Positions 27,274 to 31,297 of a stretch of DNA of 64,000 bases are shown piece after piece. The notes beneath the pieces are model-generated. The model was not told the origin of the DNA. It saw nothing but the letters and a program-made list of their open reading frames with translations, and did no database searches. Position 1 is the first letter of the stretch. Every line of letters begins with the position of its first letter. This DNA comes from Escherichia phage vB_EcoM-RPN187, in the sequence record OL770074.2; one strand, given 5' to 3'. Both the position numbers and the translations under genes were made by a program.

Positions 27274-27639
27274 TTAGATATCGAATTCGTTAAGAACTAC
27301 ATCAAAGATTGCTTCGAGATGTTCAGGTTTAGCTCGATTGCTCAGGATGTGACGAATCCAAGTTTTAACCAGAAGTTTACGATTAACACCGTTCCAGCAA
27401 GGATGAGTACCTAAATCACGTTGACGGAAATCGTCATCTAATGCAATTTTGAAGTTGGAACCTTCCATCGTGATTGAAACCGTGATGCCATTTTCAAATC
27501 GCATATAAACGTAATTAGGAGTCATATACTGCTCAATTTCGCATACTGAGCCGTTATTATGCTTCCATAAGCAAATTGTATCGATAGAACCAGCGATACA
27601 GTTAGAAACATATTTACGTTCGAAGTTGATGTAGTTCAT
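27274..27639 (-). CDS. hypothetical protein
   Basis: 121-aa ORF. Confidence 0.5.
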   Translation of the reverse strand: MNYINFERKYVSNCIAGSIDTICLWKHNNGSVCEIEQYMTPNYVYMRFENGITVSITMEGSNFKIALDDDFRQRDLGTHPCWNGVNRKLLVKTWIRHILSNRAKPEHLEAIFDVVLNEFDI

Positions 27640-27679
27640 TTTATTCTCCAGATGTTTAAGTTGTTTGTTGGTACAGGTC

Positions 27680-27709
27680 TATAATAACAAAACCTGTACC
27701 AAAGTAAAC
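27680..27709 (-). promoter_or_regulatory. T4 early-type promoter with -10 embedded in an inverted repeat
   Basis: minus GTTTAC-N17-TATTAT; flanking inverted repeat ggtacagg/cctgtacc. Confidence 0.5.
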
Positions 27710-27713
27710 TGTT

Positions 27714-28082
27714 TTATGCAACTTTAATCCAATTGCCTAAATTTAAAACACCTTTGGCTTTCATTTTTTCGATCAGGTTATCTGCTGTAATGCGTCCATT
27801 TTGATACCATGTAACATCTTCAGAGTAACCAGTTTCTTCGTCAACATATGTTTCTGAGCGAATTTTACCGGTAATAATAGTTTTTAATTCGTATGTGTCA
27901 CCAGTGAAAAAGTTTGCTAACACAATTTTCCAAGAGAAATCATTTGAAGGACCTTCAGGGGTCATACAACTTATGAACTCAAATTGCTCTTTGTATAACA
28001 TCCACTGGAATTCTTTAATTTCGATAGCTTTATAACCGTCGTGGTCTTTACATTTGATGTATGAGTTCAGATTGATTTTCAT
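27714..28082 (-). CDS. hypothetical protein
   Basis: 122-aa ORF. Confidence 0.5.
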   Translation of the reverse strand: MKINLNSYIKCKDHDGYKAIEIKEFQWMLYKEQFEFISCMTPEGPSNDFSWKIVLANFFTGDTYELKTIITGKIRSETYVDEETGYSEDVTWYQNGRITADNLIEKMKAKGVLNLGNWIKVA

Positions 28083-28123
28083 TTTATTCTCCGGTTGTTT
28101 TATTGATTAGGTGGTACAAGTCT

Positions 28124-28153
28124 ATAGTAACACATCCTACAGGAGAGTAAACA
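28124..28153 (-). promoter_or_regulatory. T4 early-type promoter
   Basis: minus GTTTAC-N17-TACTAT. Confidence 0.5.
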
Positions 28154-28189
28154 TCTTTTTTAAACTTTTTCTGCCCTAAACGCACAAAA

Positions 28190-28207
28190 GGGAGACCGAA
28201 GTCTCCC
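28190..28207 (-). terminator. CUUCGG tetraloop hairpin terminator
   Basis: GGGAGA-CCGAAG-TCTCCC (identical 18-mer family) downstream of small ORF stop, followed by T-rich tract on minus. Confidence 0.7.
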
Positions 28208-28212
28208 TAAAA

Positions 28213-28392
28213 TTATGCAACAACCTTTCCAAAACGAGAAGCATCATCTCGAAGAACTGCACGTGCTCTGCGCATGATCTTCTCAACTGTTTGATTAATA
28301 CGAGAGTTCGACCCACGCTTGTATCCAGCGCGTTTAGAGGTACCATCAACTTTCTTTTCTACTGCTTTCTTTGCTTTAGCTTGTTTTGCCAT
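28213..28392 (-). CDS. small basic Lys/Arg-rich protein (hypothetical, not in ORF track)
   Basis: 59-aa ORF MAKQAKAKKAVEKKVDGTSKRAGYKRGSNSRINQTVEKIMRRARAVLRDDASRFGKVVA; terminator hairpin immediately downstream. Confidence 0.45.
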   Translation of the reverse strand: MAKQAKAKKAVEKKVDGTSKRAGYKRGSNSRINQTVEKIMRRARAVLRDDASRFGKVVA

Positions 28393-28662
28393 TATAAATT
28401 CTCTTTAAATGAAAATGCAGGACTTATTGACATTGCCTGCTCAAGCCCTCAAGGGGAACATAGGTTTTTGAATATTTAACGACCAGGATAACCATAAACC
28501 CGTCATCATACCTACCACGACTTAGACAGATAACCTTTTTCTGACGCGTGATAGTACAAAATACATTCAAGAGGTACACCGTAAAATTGTCGGGGCGGTA
28601 CTTCTAAAACATACCGATTCGCAAATCGATAATCAGACAATTCGACGGCTCCTCGATTTAAC

Positions 28663-28911
28663 TTACTTCAGGGTAATAACAAAATGACGAACTGCTTTAC
28701 GTGCTGCAGAAGCCAGAGGCTTAGCATATTTCAATTCATCTTTCTGGACCAGGATATCACGAAGATCAGCTTGTGCTGGATTCAGATGTTTGAAATACTG
28801 TAAGATTTCAAGAGCTTCGGCTTCAACATCAATAGATGCACCGTAATTTTCATGGCCATTATTCCATGCATGGCGTTGCAGTTCAAGAGCGTGTTGTAAT
28901 TGTTTAATCAT
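28663..28911 (-). CDS. rIII: rIII lysis-inhibition accessory protein
   Basis: 82-aa ORF (T4 rIII 82 aa); position just upstream of gene 31. Confidence 0.8.
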   Translation of the reverse strand: MIKQLQHALELQRHAWNNGHENYGASIDVEAEALEILQYFKHLNPAQADLRDILVQKDELKYAKPLASAARKAVRHFVITLK

Positions 28912-29035
28912 TTTAAATTCTCAATTCGAGATAATATTTAGTAGCCACGTTCTTCTGAATTTCACTTTCTTTCGACAAGTCTCTCAGGTGTAGGCTACCG
29001 CTTAGAAGAGTGTTCTCTTCATATAGTTATTTATA

Positions 29036-29368
29036 TCACTTATAAAGACACGGAATAGCTTTATAGTGGCATGTTACGAATTTCTGTTTAATTTCTTTAG
29101 GTTGTTTAAGACCCAAAGCCACAAATGGATGTGGAACATTTCGAATTTGTCCAACTGGTAGTGGAGTCAAATCACCGACTTCAACAAAACCTTCAGGAAC
29201 ATCAGGACCTACAGAATGAACTACACATAGTTCAGGAACTTCACCTTGAACACGTTTACCAATCACAAGTCCTGATTCTGTAACTTCTTCATCACCTGCT
29301 TGAGCTGGTTCAGAAACCAGAATGACATATTCACCAACAGCACGAATTGGGAGTTGTACTTCAGACAT
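29036..29368 (-). CDS. 31: gp31 co-chaperonin (GroES analogue for gp23 folding)
   Basis: 110-aa ORF (T4 gp31 111 aa); synteny rIII-31-cd. Confidence 0.85.
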
Positions 29369-29425
29369 CTTATTTCCTTATTGTTTGACGATAGATTAAT
29401 AATACCATACTATTCGTAAAGCATA

Positions 29426-29734
29426 TTACATAAGAAGCAAACGTTCTACCGGAGTGCCATCAACCGAAATTACTTTATCAAGGCGGAAAGAACGCCACTG
29501 ACCTAACTTGGTGTCGAATGCTCGAACTGATTCACGAGGTTCATAACGAACTTCTGTTGCTGGATTGTTATTTTCGTATTTGACTTCAAGTTCATCGCGC
29601 GAAGCAAACATAGTGCGTACCTCGCCGTTAGCCTTTTCAAATACAACACAATGAACGCCTACAGACAGAATAGTTTTAATACGTTCACGAAGAACCATAG
29701 TTTCTTGTTCAGTTAAAATCATATTATTCACCAC
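29426..29734 (-). CDS. hypothetical protein (T4 31.1 position)
   Basis: 102-aa ORF, start-overlaps cd stop. Confidence 0.5.
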   Translation of the reverse strand: MVNNMILTEQETMVLRERIKTILSVGVHCVVFEKANGEVRTMFASRDELEVKYENNNPATEVRYEPRESVRAFDTKLGQWRSFRLDKVISVDGTPVERLLLM

Positions 29735-30305
29735 AAAAGTTTCGGATTTGTTCCCAATTCAGAGAACGAAGATTATTACGAGAGTACTGAATTACTTCAA
29801 TACCGGCTTGTTTTAGAATGTCTGCCCAATTTTCAGGAGATCGATCGTATAATTCTGCGTATACAACCTTTTTAATACCTGACTGCGTAATAGCTTTAGT
29901 GCAATCAGGACACGGAGAAAGCGTCGTATATAACGTAGCACCTTCAATAGAATTACCTTTACGAGCTGCAAACAAAATTGCGTTCAGTTCCGCATGGATT
30001 TCGTTATTAGCAGACCATGCACTATGAGCCGCTCGATGTTCTTTAGCCAAAACAAAATTATCTGCCCGTCCAAATGCCGTAGTGCCTTCTTTATGTCCAG
30101 CAACGATGACCGGACTTGGTTTATTCTTCAACCAACCATTTTCGGATGCATGTTCGCAACAGTTAACGCCACCGGCCGGTGAACCATTATATCCAGTAGA
30201 GATAATGCGCCCATCTTTTTCAATGACGGCACCAACTTTCCATGAACAACATTTTGATTCTTGAGAAATCAAATAAGCAATTTGAAGATATGTGCTAGCT
30301 TTCAT
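29724..30305 (-). CDS. cd: dCMP deaminase
   Basis: 193-aa ORF; zinc-binding HAE (HAELNAI) and PCPDC motifs; T4 Cd 193 aa. Confidence 0.95.
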   Translation of the reverse strand: MKASTYLQIAYLISQESKCCSWKVGAVIEKDGRIISTGYNGSPAGGVNCCEHASENGWLKNKPSPVIVAGHKEGTTAFGRADNFVLAKEHRAAHSAWSANNEIHAELNAILFAARKGNSIEGATLYTTLSPCPDCTKAITQSGIKKVVYAELYDRSPENWADILKQAGIEVIQYSRNNLRSLNWEQIRNFCGE

Positions 30306-31297
30306 TATTGAACCTTATTAATATAAGTTAACAGCTCTTTAGTTTGTTCCCAACTGATGCACGCATCGGTAACGGAAACGCCATAGGACATATTATCAGA
30401 AATTTTTTGATTTCCTTCATGTAGGAATGATTCTATCATAATTCCTTTGACCAAATCATTAGCTGCTAAATTTTTACCAATACCAATTTGATTGCTATAA
30501 CACCCATCAGCGTTTGCATGGCTACAGTCAACCATTACATAATGATTCAGACCTAATGCACTTGCTTTGTTAGAAGCTTCTTGAATATCAGAAGAATGAT
30601 AGTTCGGGCCGTTGGTCCCACCACGCAATACGATATGCGTATTCTGATTACCTTCAGCTTCAACAATGCCTACAGTACCATCGACGTCCATACCCATATA
30701 CCGATGAGGCCAGGCGGCACTATACATCGCGTCTGTAGCTACTTTAATAGAACCATTGGTTGCGTTCTTGAAGCCTACGCACATCGGTAGACCTGAAGCA
30801 ATTTCACGATGTGTCTGACTTTCAGTCGTACGGGCGCCAATAGCAACCCATGAGAAAATACCAGAAAGATACTTAATTGTGAATGGGTCTAATACTTCAG
30901 TTGCTAATGGAAGTCCCATACGTAGAAGTTTACGACACAATGTTCGTGCAACTATAAGACCGTGGTTCATATCAAAACTTCCGTCAAGATATGGATCATT
31001 TACAAGACCTTTCCAACCTACGGTAGTTCGAGGCTTTTCAAAATAAACGCGCATCACTAACAGAACATTAGGAAGACGAGTTTGAAGTTCAGCCAGACGT
31101 TTGCCGTATTCAACAGCAGCAATAGGGTCATGAATTGAACAAGGACCTACAACAATAAGTTTGCGTGGGTCTTCACCGTTCATAATCGAATTAACTTGTT
31201 CGCGATGAGAAGCCACTTGTGATGCGTAAGCTTCCGACAAAGGAATAATCTCAGCCAGTTCTTTTGGAGAAATAAGTTTTCTGATGACAGGTAACAT
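30305..31297 (-). CDS. 3-deoxy-D-arabino-heptulosonate-7-phosphate (DAHP) synthase, class I AroG/AroF-like
   Basis: 330-aa ORF; AroG-like motifs LIVVGPCSIHD, KPRTTVGWKGL, GARTTESQ, DCSHAN, ESFLHEGNQ, TDACI; SD TAAGGA; start overlaps cd stop. Confidence 0.85.
   Translation of the reverse strand: MLPVIRKLISPKELAEIIPLSEAYASQVASHREQVNSIMNGEDPRKLIVVGPCSIHDPIAAVEYGKRLAELQTRLPNVLLVMRVYFEKPRTTVGWKGLVNDPYLDGSFDMNHGLIVARTLCRKLLRMGLPLATEVLDPFTIKYLSGIFSWVAIGARTTESQTHREIASGLPMCVGFKNATNGSIKVATDAMYSAAWPHRYMGMDVDGTVGIVEAEGNQNTHIVLRGGTNGPNYHSSDIQEASNKASALGLNHYVMVDCSHANADGCYSNQIGIGKNLAANDLVKGIMIESFLHEGNQKISDNMSYGVSVTDACISWEQTKELLTYINKVQ

What the first reader, a model, noticed from the sequence alone, without database searches (positions are those of the whole stretch)
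28190..28662. Unannotated 59-aa basic ORF next to a 270-nt gene-free gap
A 59-aa Lys/Arg-rich ORF (28213..28392, minus) is missing from the ORF track only because of the 60-aa cut-off, and a perfect CUUCGG terminator hairpin follows it. Upstream lies a 270-nt stretch (28393..28662) with no ORF of meaningful size, in a genome where intergenic gaps are usually under 60 nt. I found no clean consensus promoter in the gap. It may hold a structured RNA leader, a small RNA or an atypical regulatory region. The basic protein resembles nucleic-acid-binding or histone-like small proteins.
Basis: seen in the sequence. Interest (0 to 1): 0.5.

Follow-up and report, generated by a model that had tools for sequence, protein, structure and literature searches.

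The report
Structured RNA cassettes upstream of 30.9
The small ORF is the already known T4-type gene 30.9, but the "empty" 270 bases before it hold a chain of conserved, independently folding RNA structures that unrelated coliphages also carry, that no RNA database lists, and whose function is unknown.

Summary
The window comes from an RB69-like (Mosigvirus) T4-type phage.

**The ORF.** The 59-aa ORF at 28213-28392 (minus strand) is T4 gene 30.9. It is annotated in T4 and found in about 1000 phage records, and its function is unknown. A UUCG hairpin terminator follows it, then an early promoter.

**The gap.** The 270-nt gap is the conserved rIII-30.9 intergenic region. It has no promoter, tRNA, tandem repeat or Rfam match. 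Comparative analysis shows it is full of RNA structure on the sense strand:
- Module A is an 84-nt irregular hairpin. 98% of cells pair and 13 of 26 pairs show compensatory changes.
- Module B is a 43-nt hairpin.
- Module C is an H-type pseudoknot with compensatory changes across ten genera.
- Small hairpins lie in front of the 30.9 start codon.

**Mobility.** The modules behave as separate cassettes. Among T4-like genera they are gained, lost and reordered. They also occur in tRNA clusters of Vequintavirinae and phi92, and upstream of the terminase gene in Kuravirus. In sister phages the same gap carries one ToxI (type III antitoxin) repeat. This window lacks it.

**Function (inferred).** I favour protein-binding or decoy RNAs of the pseudo-ToxI kind, with a 30.9 leader next to the start codon. 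Autoregulation of 30.9 is the main rival.

The parts
28663..28911 (-). rIII (lysis-inhibition accessory protein, 82 aa). Its stop codon marks the upstream edge of the gap.
   Evidence: ORF list; phrog_1457 at E=5.8e-42; annotated as rIII in relatives.
28571..28654 (-). Module A, an 84-nt irregular hairpin. From the base upward: P1 GAGG/CCUC; invariant internal loop AG/UGUA; P2 CCGU/ACGG; GAA/UUU; P3 UUGUC/GACAA; UGAU; 8-bp P4 with a UNNG loop; then a conserved unpaired 3' strand UAUGUUUUA..CC.CC.
   Evidence: Covariance model R1 scores 96.5 bits at 28567-28658 and this is the only copy in the window. 98.2% of cells are paired, 13 of 26 pairs have compensatory changes, and 0 of 500 shuffles reach the observed score; slid controls pair at 30-65%. 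RNAalifold finds the same fold independently. Pairing is 98.2% on the sense strand and 90.2% on the antisense strand.
28512..28554 (-). Module B, a 43-nt hairpin: outer stem CUAUCACG/CGUGGUAG and inner stem CAGA/UCUG, with conserved loops (AAAAAGGUUA and UCUAAGU).
   Evidence: RNAalifold on 7 variants gives 15 pairs, 5 of them with compensatory changes. It is a single copy in the window. T4 and Vequintavirinae lack it. In Karamvirus RZH it lies downstream of module C.
28459..28504 (-). Module C, an H-type pseudoknot. S1 is GAC (28502-28504) with GUC (28481-28483). S2 is UAUGGUU (28490-28496) with AACCUAU (28460-28466). The conserved loop 3 is GUUAAAUAUUCAAA.
   Evidence: On the MAFFT alignment of 14 sequences from 10 lineages, S1 is 100% paired and 2 of its 3 pairs are compensatory. 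The whole structure pairs at 75.7% against 63.7 +/- 2.2% in shuffles (0 of 500), and slid controls pair at 34-50%. A manual register gives 115 of 140 cells paired against 93.7 +/- 3.4. Single copy in the window.
28446..28456 (-). Hairpin D (CCCCUUGAGGG), a small hairpin conserved across genera (variants CCCUUCGAGGG and CCCCUAGAGGG).
   Evidence: Seen directly in sequences of T4, Jiaodavirus, Gelderlandvirus, Moonvirus, Kanagawavirus and Karamvirus. No statistics were run.
28407..28440 (-). Hairpin E (GCAGG-CAAUGUCAAUAAGU-CCUGC) followed by AUUUUCAUUU. It looks like a weak terminator. The U-rich tail can pair with the Shine-Dalgarno region (AUUUUC/GAGAAU).
   Evidence: Sequence and a single-sequence fold. 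The loop CAAUGYCAAUAAG is conserved in T4 and Gelderlandvirus with changed stems. Function is inferred.
28213..28406 (-). Shine-Dalgarno sequence AAAGAG (28401-28406) and gene 30.9 (28213-28392; 59 aa, basic, function unknown).
28186..28207 (-). Intrinsic terminator: GGGAGAC-UUCG-GUCUCCC followed by UUUU.
   Evidence: dG -12.0 kcal/mol. Annotated by ARNold in ATK47 and PhAPEC2.
28124..28151 (-). T4-type early promoter (TTTACT, 16 nt, TACTAT, preceded by an A-tract) for 30.8. Together with the terminator it forms a PeSL-type cassette.
   Evidence: Sequence. It fits the PeSL promoter consensus TTTACW..N17..TAYWAT given for the PST/T4 pair in PMC4122927, with a 16-nt instead of a 17-nt spacer. 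The generic sigma-70 scan does not flag it.

Best explanation
The 270-nt gap is the conserved rIII-30.9 intergenic region of T4-type phages, and it is packed with RNA structure. It has no promoter of its own. It is therefore transcribed in the sense of rIII and 30.9, as the 3' UTR of rIII and the 5' leader of 30.9, and the transcript ends at the UUCG terminator after 30.9 (inferred from the sequence).

The RNA is a string of independently folding cassettes:
- A: an 84-nt irregular hairpin with an invariant AG/UGUA internal loop.
- B: a 43-nt hairpin.
- C: an H-type pseudoknot with a conserved A-rich loop.
- D and E: small hairpins next to the ribosome-binding site.

The folds and their conservation are shown. 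It is also shown that the cassettes are separable and are exchanged horizontally.

The function is inferred. I think A, B and C are binding platforms or decoys for a host or phage protein. That would make this a small island of counter-defence RNAs of the same kind as pseudo-ToxI, which occupies the same gap in sister phages. I think the D and E hairpins and the helix that covers the Shine-Dalgarno sequence tune translation of gp30.9.
For: Structure:
- Module A has 98.2% of cells paired and 13 of 26 pairs with compensatory changes. No shuffle of 500 reaches it and slid controls collapse to 30-65%. RNAalifold recovers the same fold.
- 49 G-U cells make the fold specific to the sense strand: 98.2% paired against 90.2% on the antisense strand.
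- Module C: S1 is 100% paired, with AU<->UA and CG<->GC<->UA changes across 10 lineages. The whole pseudoknot beats all 500 shuffles and all slid controls.
- Module B has 5 of 15 compensatory pairs.

Conservation:
- The gap matches 770 phage records, including T4.

Autonomy and mobility:
- Module content and order differ among genera: ToxI-like-A-C in T4; A-B-C here; A-X-C in JS98-type phages; C-ToxI-like-X in Jiaodavirus; X-C in Moonvirus and Kanagawavirus; D-C-B in Karamvirus RZH.
- A+C lies upstream of two tRNAs in Vequintavirinae with no 30.9 nearby, and still shows a U-G to C-G improvement in P4.
- A T4-derived cassette sits in the phi92 tRNA cluster.
- A alone is present in 28 Kuravirus-type records and cleanly absent from phiEco32.
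- 'Mini' versions of A keep only the basal stem and the AG/UGUA loop.

Link to ToxI:
- The 36-nt ToxI repeat I recalled matches pECA1039 and about 49 E. coli plasmids at 100%, just upstream of ToxN/AbiQ toxin genes.
- The pattern GGTGATTNGCTACC-N1-5-AGTGCNGCTAGAAA hits those arrays. It also hits the rIII-30.9 gap of 9 T4-like loci and the terminase-portal gap of Kuravirus XT18, which carries module A 1.7 kb away.
- The experimentally characterised phiTE pseudo-ToxI lies in the Vequintavirinae tRNA region (PMC3475682).

Other:
- The gap has about 40-41% G+C against 33-35% in the nearby intergenic DNA.
Against: - No transcript or functional data were available. None of the T4 papers I could read mentions this region.
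- This window has no ToxI-like unit, so the decoy reading rests on guilt by association.
- Modules A, B, C and X have no blastn match in 72,556 plasmids or 5,426 E. coli genomes. No host RNA that they might mimic is known.
- They are single copies, not tandem arrays like real type III antitoxins.
- Module C accompanies 30.9 in every T4-like genus examined, which fits a cis-regulatory role equally well.
- From my own knowledge: classic labelling of small stable RNAs in T4-infected cells found only tRNAs and species 1 and 2. This argues against an abundant stable RNA in T4.
- Single-sequence folding of the whole gap is not exceptional (z = -0.8).
- The sequences come from only three or four deep lineages, so many compensatory 'cells' are inherited rather than independent events.
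Confidence: 0.45

Rival explanations
1. The region is a cis-regulatory leader. Pseudoknot C, hairpins D and E and the helix covering the Shine-Dalgarno sequence form an operator. The small basic protein gp30.9, or another phage factor, binds it to control 30.9 translation or read-through. This would resemble the T4 gene 32 pseudoknot leader or ribosomal-protein leaders. A and B would be accessory insertions.
For: - Module C lies upstream of 30.9 in all ten T4-like lineages examined, always in the same sense.
- gp30.9 is tiny, very basic and strongly conserved.
- A short anti-SD/SD helix precedes the start codon in several genera: CUCC..GGAAG, and here AUUUUC/GAGAAU.
- The gap has no promoter, so the RNA is necessarily part of the 30.9 mRNA.
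Against: - The distance and the intervening content between C and the start codon vary from about 65 to about 300 nt, and the order of modules changes.
- A+C is kept under structural selection in Vequintavirinae next to tRNAs, with no 30.9 in the 5-kb loci examined.
- A occurs alone in Kuravirus.
- gp30.9 homologues were found only in T4-like phages.
- No RNA-binding fold is detectable in gp30.9.
Confidence: 0.25
2. The modules are selfish or near-neutral cassettes. They would be stable hairpins that spread by recombination in a permissive intergenic site, like PeSLs, and that at most protect the rIII mRNA 3' end from exonucleases. They would have no specific partner.
For: - Presence/absence and reordering among close relatives.
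- A phi92 cassette flanked by a 13-nt direct repeat.
- A PeSL-type terminator-promoter unit immediately downstream.
- No host counterpart found.
Against: Unpaired positions are invariant across families: the AG/UGUA loop, UGAUUA, UAUAGUUUUA and GUUAAAUAU. A generic stabilising hairpin would not need them. Compensatory changes show continuing selection on the exact fold in four phage lineages.
Confidence: 0.17
3. The element works at the DNA level, for example as an origin, a recombination hotspot or a single-stranded DNA hairpin, rather than as RNA.
For: ATK47 carries an 'ori type 2 repeat' annotation just upstream of 30.9. Hairpins can also form in single-stranded DNA.
Against: - 49 G-U cells, including invariant G-U pairs, would be A-C mismatches on the other strand.
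- The orientation always matches the surrounding genes or tRNAs in the contexts where it was checked.
- The ATK47 repeat is a 10-nt feature outside modules A to C.
Confidence: 0.03
4. The gap encodes one or more small proteins, such as the 42-aa TTG ORF at 28512-28640 or the 51-aa GTG ORF at 28424-28579.
For: These ORFs exist. Some records annotate tiny ORFs in the gap. SwissProt once extended T4 30.9 to 97 aa, reaching into the gap (P0005).
Against: Indels of 5, 2+2 and about 52 nt break every frame between relatives. Substitutions are compensatory rather than three-periodic. In this window a stop codon closes the upstream extension of 30.9.
Confidence: 0.02

Closest known systems
T4 gene 30.9 (NP_049823.1; phrog_1427; SwissProt 'Uncharacterized 11.1 kDa protein in Gp30-rIII intergenic region')
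   Same: The 59-aa ORF is an orthologue. It has the same synteny (31 - rIII - 30.9 - 30.8) and is nearly identical to T4 gp30.9 over residues 17-56 (97.5% in tblastn).
   Different: Nothing of note. Function is unknown in T4 as well.
Pseudo-ToxI of Pectobacterium phage phiTE and ToxI of ToxIN (type III toxin-antitoxin; Blower et al. 2012, PMC3475682)
   Same: Both are short phage-encoded structured noncoding RNAs in an intergenic or tRNA-associated site. ToxI folds as a pseudoknot, and so does module C. Sister phages (ATK47, Jiaodavirus, and T4 in degenerate form) carry a ToxI-like unit in this same gap, and Kuravirus carries one near module A.
   Different: The window has no ToxI-like sequence. 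Modules A, B and C share no sequence with ToxI, are not tandemly repeated and match no plasmid or E. coli locus.
T4 gene 32 mRNA pseudoknot leader and ribosomal-protein leaders (autogenous translational control). This comparison is from my own knowledge.
   Same: An H-type pseudoknot lies tens of nucleotides upstream of the start codon of a small nucleic-acid-binding-looking protein in a T4-type phage.
   Different: There is no sequence similarity. Binding of gp30.9 is untested. The pseudoknot also occurs without 30.9 in Vequintavirinae.
PeSL promoter-terminator cassettes of T4-like phages (Arbiol 2010, PMC2839356; Comeau 2014, PMC4122927)
   Same: The terminator hairpin plus early promoter just downstream of 30.9 fits the PeSL description. 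The modular shuffling of the gap resembles PeSL-mediated exchange.
   Different: Modules A to C are not promoter-terminator units. They have conserved loops and complex folds.
preQ1-I and other small H-type pseudoknot riboswitches
   Same: The topology matches: S1, S2 formed with the 3' tail, and an A-rich loop 3.
   Different: No Rfam family matches even at E<=10 on the isolated 270 nt. Loop 3 is much longer, at about 14 nt. No ligand logic is apparent.

Membership tests
T4 gp30.9 / phrog_1427 | Significant sequence match to the family profile | tested here: met
   E=2.4e-31 over residues 1-57. tblastn finds 1006 phage records.
T4 gp30.9 / phrog_1427 | Synteny: between rIII and 30.8, on the same strand | tested here: met
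   rIII is upstream and a Phage_30_8 (PF06019) gene is downstream. The order is the same in T4.
Type III antitoxin RNA (ToxI / pseudo-ToxI) | Sequence similarity to the 36-nt ToxI repeat | tested here: not met
   No match in the window with up to 3 mismatches. The feature is met in sister phages and in true ToxI arrays.
Type III antitoxin RNA (ToxI / pseudo-ToxI) | Tandem direct repeats of a 34-45-nt unit | tested here: not met
   Tandem Repeats Finder finds none in 28100-28950. Each module is a single copy.
Type III antitoxin RNA (ToxI / pseudo-ToxI) | Pseudoknot fold of the unit | tested here: inconclusive
   Module C is an H-type pseudoknot, but it is unrelated in sequence and size to ToxI.
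Type III antitoxin RNA (ToxI / pseudo-ToxI) | Neutralises a ToxN/AbiQ-family RNase | not testable with these tools
   Needs a toxin rescue or efficiency-of-plating assay.
Any Rfam 15 family | Covariance-model match | tested here: not met
   Only chance snoRNA-like hits at E>1 on the isolated gap, on the ATK47 gap, on the variant carrying module X and on the Vequintavirinae locus.
tRNA / tmRNA | Cloverleaf detected by ARAGORN | tested here: not met
   No genes in 27500-29500.
Intrinsic terminator (after 30.9) | G+C-rich hairpin followed by a U tract | tested here: met
   A 7-bp stem with a UUCG loop, dG -12.0 kcal/mol, then UUUUGUG. The tool's stricter scan did not list it. ARNold lists it in relatives.
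PeSL cassette | Stem-loop followed by an early promoter TTTACW-N17-TAYWAT | tested here: met
   TTTACT, 16 nt, TACTAT at 28124-28151, which is 35 nt downstream of the hairpin. The consensus comes from PMC4122927. The spacer is 16 nt rather than 17.
Autoregulatory pseudoknot leader (gene 32 type) | The encoded protein binds its own leader and represses translation | not testable with these tools
   Only co-occurrence of module C with 30.9 in ten lineages is shown.

The most novel reading that the evidence does not exclude
Modules A and C, and the alternative 138-nt module X, would be new classes of phage counter-defence RNA. They would be structured decoys that neutralise host RNA-guided or RNase-based immunity, collected together with pseudo-ToxI in a small 'RNA anti-defence island' that T4 itself carries and that coliphages of four unrelated lineages exchange.
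Probability: 0.25. Interest if true: 0.85.

Novelty: new variant of a known kind. Interest (0 to 1): 0.6.

Why it matters
T4 and RB69 are among the best-studied viruses, yet this intergenic region is treated as empty. I found no Rfam family and, in the library I could search, no paper describing its RNA structures.

Three things make it worth testing:
- It contains at least three covariation-supported RNA folds.
- Those folds have moved between T4-like phages, rV5-like and phi92-like phages, and phiEco32-like phages.
- They share their site with a mimic of the ToxI antitoxin.

Together these give a concrete candidate for RNA-based phage counter-defence, or otherwise for a new translational operator for a universally conserved T4-type protein of unknown function. 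Either result would add to the very short list of functional noncoding RNAs known in virulent phages. The ORF itself is ordinary.

Tried and rejected
- **Rfam.** Searches on 2 kb, on the isolated 270 nt, on the ATK47 gap, on the variant with module X and on the Vequintavirinae locus gave only chance hits.
- **tRNA and tmRNA.** The ARAGORN scan found none in the window region or in the loci carrying module X.
- **Promoters and terminators.** No promoter lies in the gap. The tool also missed the obvious terminator and the T4-type early promoter, because its consensus rules are generic.
- **Single-sequence folding.** The z-score was about -0.8 on both strands and uninformative. Only comparative analysis gave a signal.
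- **Motif ideas.** I considered a C/D-box or k-turn reading of CUGAUUA...AUGAUGA, a hammerhead core, a preQ1-like aptamer, a tRNA-like structure and a put-type antiterminator. I dropped them for lack of any model match or of defining features.
- **MotA and late promoters.** Inspected by eye; the spacing does not fit.
- **Wider pattern scans.** Scans of the metagenome and of 185,579 genomes for module A returned only T4-like and Kuravirus-like contigs plus one chance hit. No bacterial source was found.
- **Host counterparts.** blastn of modules A to E plus X against plasmids and E. coli genomes found no match.
- **Literature.** Searches for an sRNA or transcript map of rIII-30.9 found nothing. 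Driukas & Nivinskas 2003 (Biologija) on rIII/30.9 expression is cited elsewhere but not held in the library.
- **gp30.9.** There is no Pfam or PDB relative. The AlphaFold2 model has pLDDT 67, too low for a meaningful fold search, so I ran none.
- **Protein-coding reading of the gap.** Rejected because of frame-breaking indels.
Full report
**1. What the window is**

The region 27.7-31.3 kb of the window carries, on the minus strand, cd, 31.1, gene 31, rIII, the 59-aa ORF, 30.8 and 30.7. The 851 bases around the finding are 98.5% identical to Escherichia phage AV112. They match 735 phage records, and the closest annotated ones are Mosigvirus (RB69-like T4-type phages).

**2. Checking the observation**

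- The ORF 28213-28392 (minus, 59 aa) exists and has an AAAGAG Shine-Dalgarno sequence.
- The hairpin GGGAGAC-UUCG-GUCUCCC at 28190-28207 is followed by UUUU and has dG -12.0 kcal/mol. ARNold annotates it as a terminator in ATK47 and PhAPEC2.
- The gap 28393-28662 lies between the rIII stop codon and the ORF start.
- The gap has no sigma-70-like promoter, no tRNA and no tandem repeat.
- So the description is accurate.

**3. The ORF is known**

- ATK47, PhAPEC2 and T4 annotate it as gene 30.9 (T4 NP_049823.1).
- It matches phrog_1427, 'unknown function', at E=2.4e-31.
- tblastn finds it in 1006 phage records from Escherichia, Klebsiella, Enterobacter, Serratia, Citrobacter and Proteus hosts.
- A search of 5.8 billion proteins returns only proteins from T4-like phages.
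- The core SKRAGYKRGSNxRINQ..EK...RARAVLRDD is almost invariant.
- It has no Pfam domain and no PDB relative.
- AlphaFold2 gives a low-confidence model (pLDDT 67) with a basic disordered N-terminus and one helix at residues 30-54. 'Histone-like' is therefore unsupported.
- The label '1,4-alpha-glucan branching enzyme' seen in several records has no support in the Pfam or PHROG searches and looks like an annotation artefact.

**4. The gap is conserved and structured**

The 270 nt match 770 phage records, including T4, where the gap is 244 nt at 130541-130784. A large rIII-30.9 gap is present in every Tevenvirinae genus I sampled, at 146-368 nt. Folding the single sequence was uninformative (z = -0.8). 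Comparison was decisive.

*Module A (28571-28654)*
- It is an irregular hairpin. From the base upward: P1 GAGG/CCUC; an invariant AG/UGUA internal loop; P2 CCGU/ACGG; GAA/UUU; P3; UGAU; an 8-bp P4 capped by UNNG; and a conserved unpaired 3' strand.
- On 23 distinct sequences, 98.2% of 550 cells pair and 13 of 26 pairs carry changes on both sides.
- No shuffle of 500 reaches the observed covariation score, and sliding the partners drops pairing to 30-65%.
- RNAalifold recovers the same fold unprompted.
- 49 G-U cells, including invariant G-U pairs, make the fold specific to the sense strand: 98.2% paired against 90.2% on the antisense strand. This points to RNA rather than DNA.
- A covariance model scores 96.5 bits here and finds no other copy in the 64 kb.

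*Module B (28512-28554)*
- It is a hairpin with conserved loops. 5 of its 15 pairs are compensatory in 7 variants.

*Module C (28459-28504)*
- It is an H-type pseudoknot.
- S1 is GAC/GUC here, GUC/GAC in Karamvirus, GUG/CAC in Jiaodavirus and Gelderlandvirus, and GUU/AAC in Moonvirus and Kanagawavirus.
- S2 covaries likewise: GGUAG/CUACU, CAAGGUU/AACCUUG, UGUGAG/CUCACA.
- On an unedited MAFFT alignment, S1 is 100% paired. The whole knot pairs at 75.7% against 63.7 +/- 2.2% in shuffles (0 of 500), and slid controls pair at 34-50%.
- A hand-registered alignment gives 115 of 140 paired cells against 93.7 +/- 3.4. That alignment is fitted to the model, so it leans towards it.
- In T4 and Mosigvirus, the outer three S2 pairs are mismatched in this register and need a one-base slip.

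*Downstream of C*
- Hairpin D (CCCCUUGAGGG) and hairpin E with a U-rich tail follow. A weak helix can cover the Shine-Dalgarno sequence.
- Other genera have a CUCC...GGAAG helix at the same place.

*Coding potential*
- Indels of 5, 2+2 and about 52 nt break every reading frame, so the gap is not coding.

**5. The modules are separable and mobile**

*Within T4-like phages, content and order vary:*

| Phage or group | Order of modules |
|---|---|
| T4 | ToxI-like, A, C, D, E |
| This window | A, B, C, D, E |
| ATK47 | ToxI-like, A, B, C, D, E |
| JS98-type | A, X, C (X is a 138-nt element in 407 records) |
| Jiaodavirus | C, ToxI-like, X, D |
| Moonvirus, Kanagawavirus | X, C, D |
| Karamvirus | D, C, then another hairpin or B |

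Some phages keep only a 'mini-A', meaning the basal stem plus the AG/UGUA loop.

*Outside T4-like phages:*
- A+C without B lies in noncoding DNA just upstream of two tRNAs in the Vequintavirinae A5-4 and LTH01, and the same stretch also matches UPEC06, A73 and W70. No 30.9 homologue is in the 5-kb A5-4 and LTH01 loci. These copies have their own structure-preserving changes.
- phi92 carries a T4-derived, circularly permuted cassette inside its tRNA cluster.
- Module A alone lies between a stop codon and a terminator upstream of the terminase gene in 28 Kuravirus-type records. It is precisely absent from phiEco32.
- Pattern scans of metagenomes and of 185,579 genomes found module A only in these phage types.

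**6. The ToxI connection**

- The optional unit upstream of A in ATK47 (AGGTGATTCGCTACCTTAGTGCGGCTAGAAAATC) resembled the ToxI repeat as I remembered it.
- I verified that memory. The 36-nt repeat matches pECA1039 and about 49 E. coli and 12 Salmonella small plasmids at 100%, as tandem arrays just upstream of a ToxN/AbiQ toxin gene.
- A 28-base pattern drawn from it hits those arrays. It also hits the rIII-30.9 gap of nine T4-like loci and the terminase-portal gap of Kuravirus XT18. XT18 holds an almost perfect single ToxI unit followed by a terminator.
- The experimentally characterised pseudo-ToxI of phiTE lies in the tRNA region of a Vequintavirinae genome (PMC3475682).
- So in three phage lineages, modules A and C share their kind of site with a known antitoxin mimic.
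- The window itself has no such unit.

**7. Mechanism**

*Shown:*
- The RNA folds.
- Their strand.
- Their conservation.
- Their independence from one another.
- Their horizontal spread.

*Inferred from the sequence:*
- The gap is transcribed as the rIII 3' UTR and 30.9 leader, because it has no promoter.

*Inferred by association:*
- Modules A, B and C are protein-binding or decoy RNAs of the pseudo-ToxI kind.
- The hairpins next to the start codon tune 30.9 translation.

*Against the decoy reading:*
- No host counterpart was found in plasmids or E. coli genomes.
- The modules are single copies.
- No expression data exist.
- Module C co-occurs perfectly with 30.9 in T4-like phages.

The main rival is an autoregulatory leader. 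It fits that co-occurrence. It does not explain the variable spacing and order, or the Vequintavirinae and Kuravirus copies that lack 30.9.

**8. Comparison and novelty**

- No Rfam 15 family matches any version of the region.
- No paper in the searchable library describes it.
- The ORF, the terminator and the PeSL-type terminator-promoter unit are known things.
- The structured modules appear to be undescribed motifs of a known general kind, phage noncoding RNA cassettes.
- I rate the finding moderately high in interest. T4 itself carries A and C, and the hypothesis can be tested directly.

Noticed in passing
window 28124-28207 (minus): The 30.9 terminator hairpin is followed 35 nt later by an A-tract and a T4-type early promoter (TTTACT, 16 nt, TACTAT) for 30.8. 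This is a PeSL-type terminator-promoter cassette as described for T4-like phages.
   Followed up: partly
L014 (phi92 FR775895) 1968-2312: The phi92 tRNA cluster contains a T4-derived, circularly permuted cassette flanked by the 13-nt direct repeat TTTATTGGAGATT. The order is: ToxI-like unit, A, C, D, E, the 30.9 start fused to the last ~26 codons of rIII, then tRNA-Gln. The record annotates the fusion as 'putative rIII' gp113. The repeat is also the 5' end of the tRNA-Gln.
   Followed up: partly
L038 7912-8060; L046, L049, L050 (rIII-30.9 gaps of other T4-like genera): A 138-nt noncoding element ('module X', GCGGCAAGTGCATGCTACCCCGAGG...CAGATAAGAGC) replaces module B in many phages. It is 90-100% identical across nearly all of 407 records spanning Tequatrovirus, Jiaodavirus, Moonvirus, Kanagawavirus and others. 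It has no Rfam match. One internal hairpin covaries (UAUAUA, UAUACA, UAUGCA).
   Followed up: partly
L054 (Kuravirus XT18 OR757434) 2497-2580: A single, almost perfect ToxI unit (one T deleted) lies between the terminase and portal genes and is followed by a terminator. blastn also finds solitary ToxI-like units in 215 phage records, including Klebsiella Jiaodavirus and phages of Salmonella, Erwinia and Vibrio.
   Followed up: partly
L053 (phiTE NC_020201) 1470-1600: The phiTE pseudo-ToxI appears embedded in a degenerate tRNA-like scaffold. TATAGCTCAGC (like a D-arm) lies 5' of it, and GGTTCGAACCC...CCACCA (like a T-arm, acceptor strand and CCA) lies 3' of it.
   Followed up: no
plasmid collection; L051, L052: ToxI arrays 100% identical to those of Pectobacterium pECA1039 occur on about 49 E. 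coli and 12 Salmonella small (~6 kb) mobilizable plasmids next to a ToxN/AbiQ toxin gene. Coliphages therefore plausibly meet this system often.
   Followed up: partly
L030 (KBNP1711) 700-745; L032 (A6-6) 1185-1225: 'Mini' versions of module A keep only P1, the AG/UGUA internal loop and P2, closed by a short loop. This suggests the basal stem and loop form the functional core.
   Followed up: no
window 28213-28392 and records: Several GenBank records label the gp30.9 homologue '1,4-alpha-glucan (glycogen) branching enzyme, GH-13-type'. Neither the Pfam nor the PHROG search supports that name. SwissProt holds a 97-aa N-terminally extended T4 version that reads into the structured gap.
   Followed up: partly
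window 30305-31297 (minus): A 330-aa ORF next to cd is annotated in relatives as an AroG-type DAHP synthase (phospho-2-dehydro-3-deoxyheptonate aldolase). This is a metabolic gene in this phage group and is not present at this place in T4.
   Followed up: no
L002 (HX01 NC_018855) 1473-2787: The RefSeq record annotates six ORFs of 20-26 aa in and around the gap, some on the opposite strand. They overlap the RNA modules and are almost certainly spurious.
   Followed up: no
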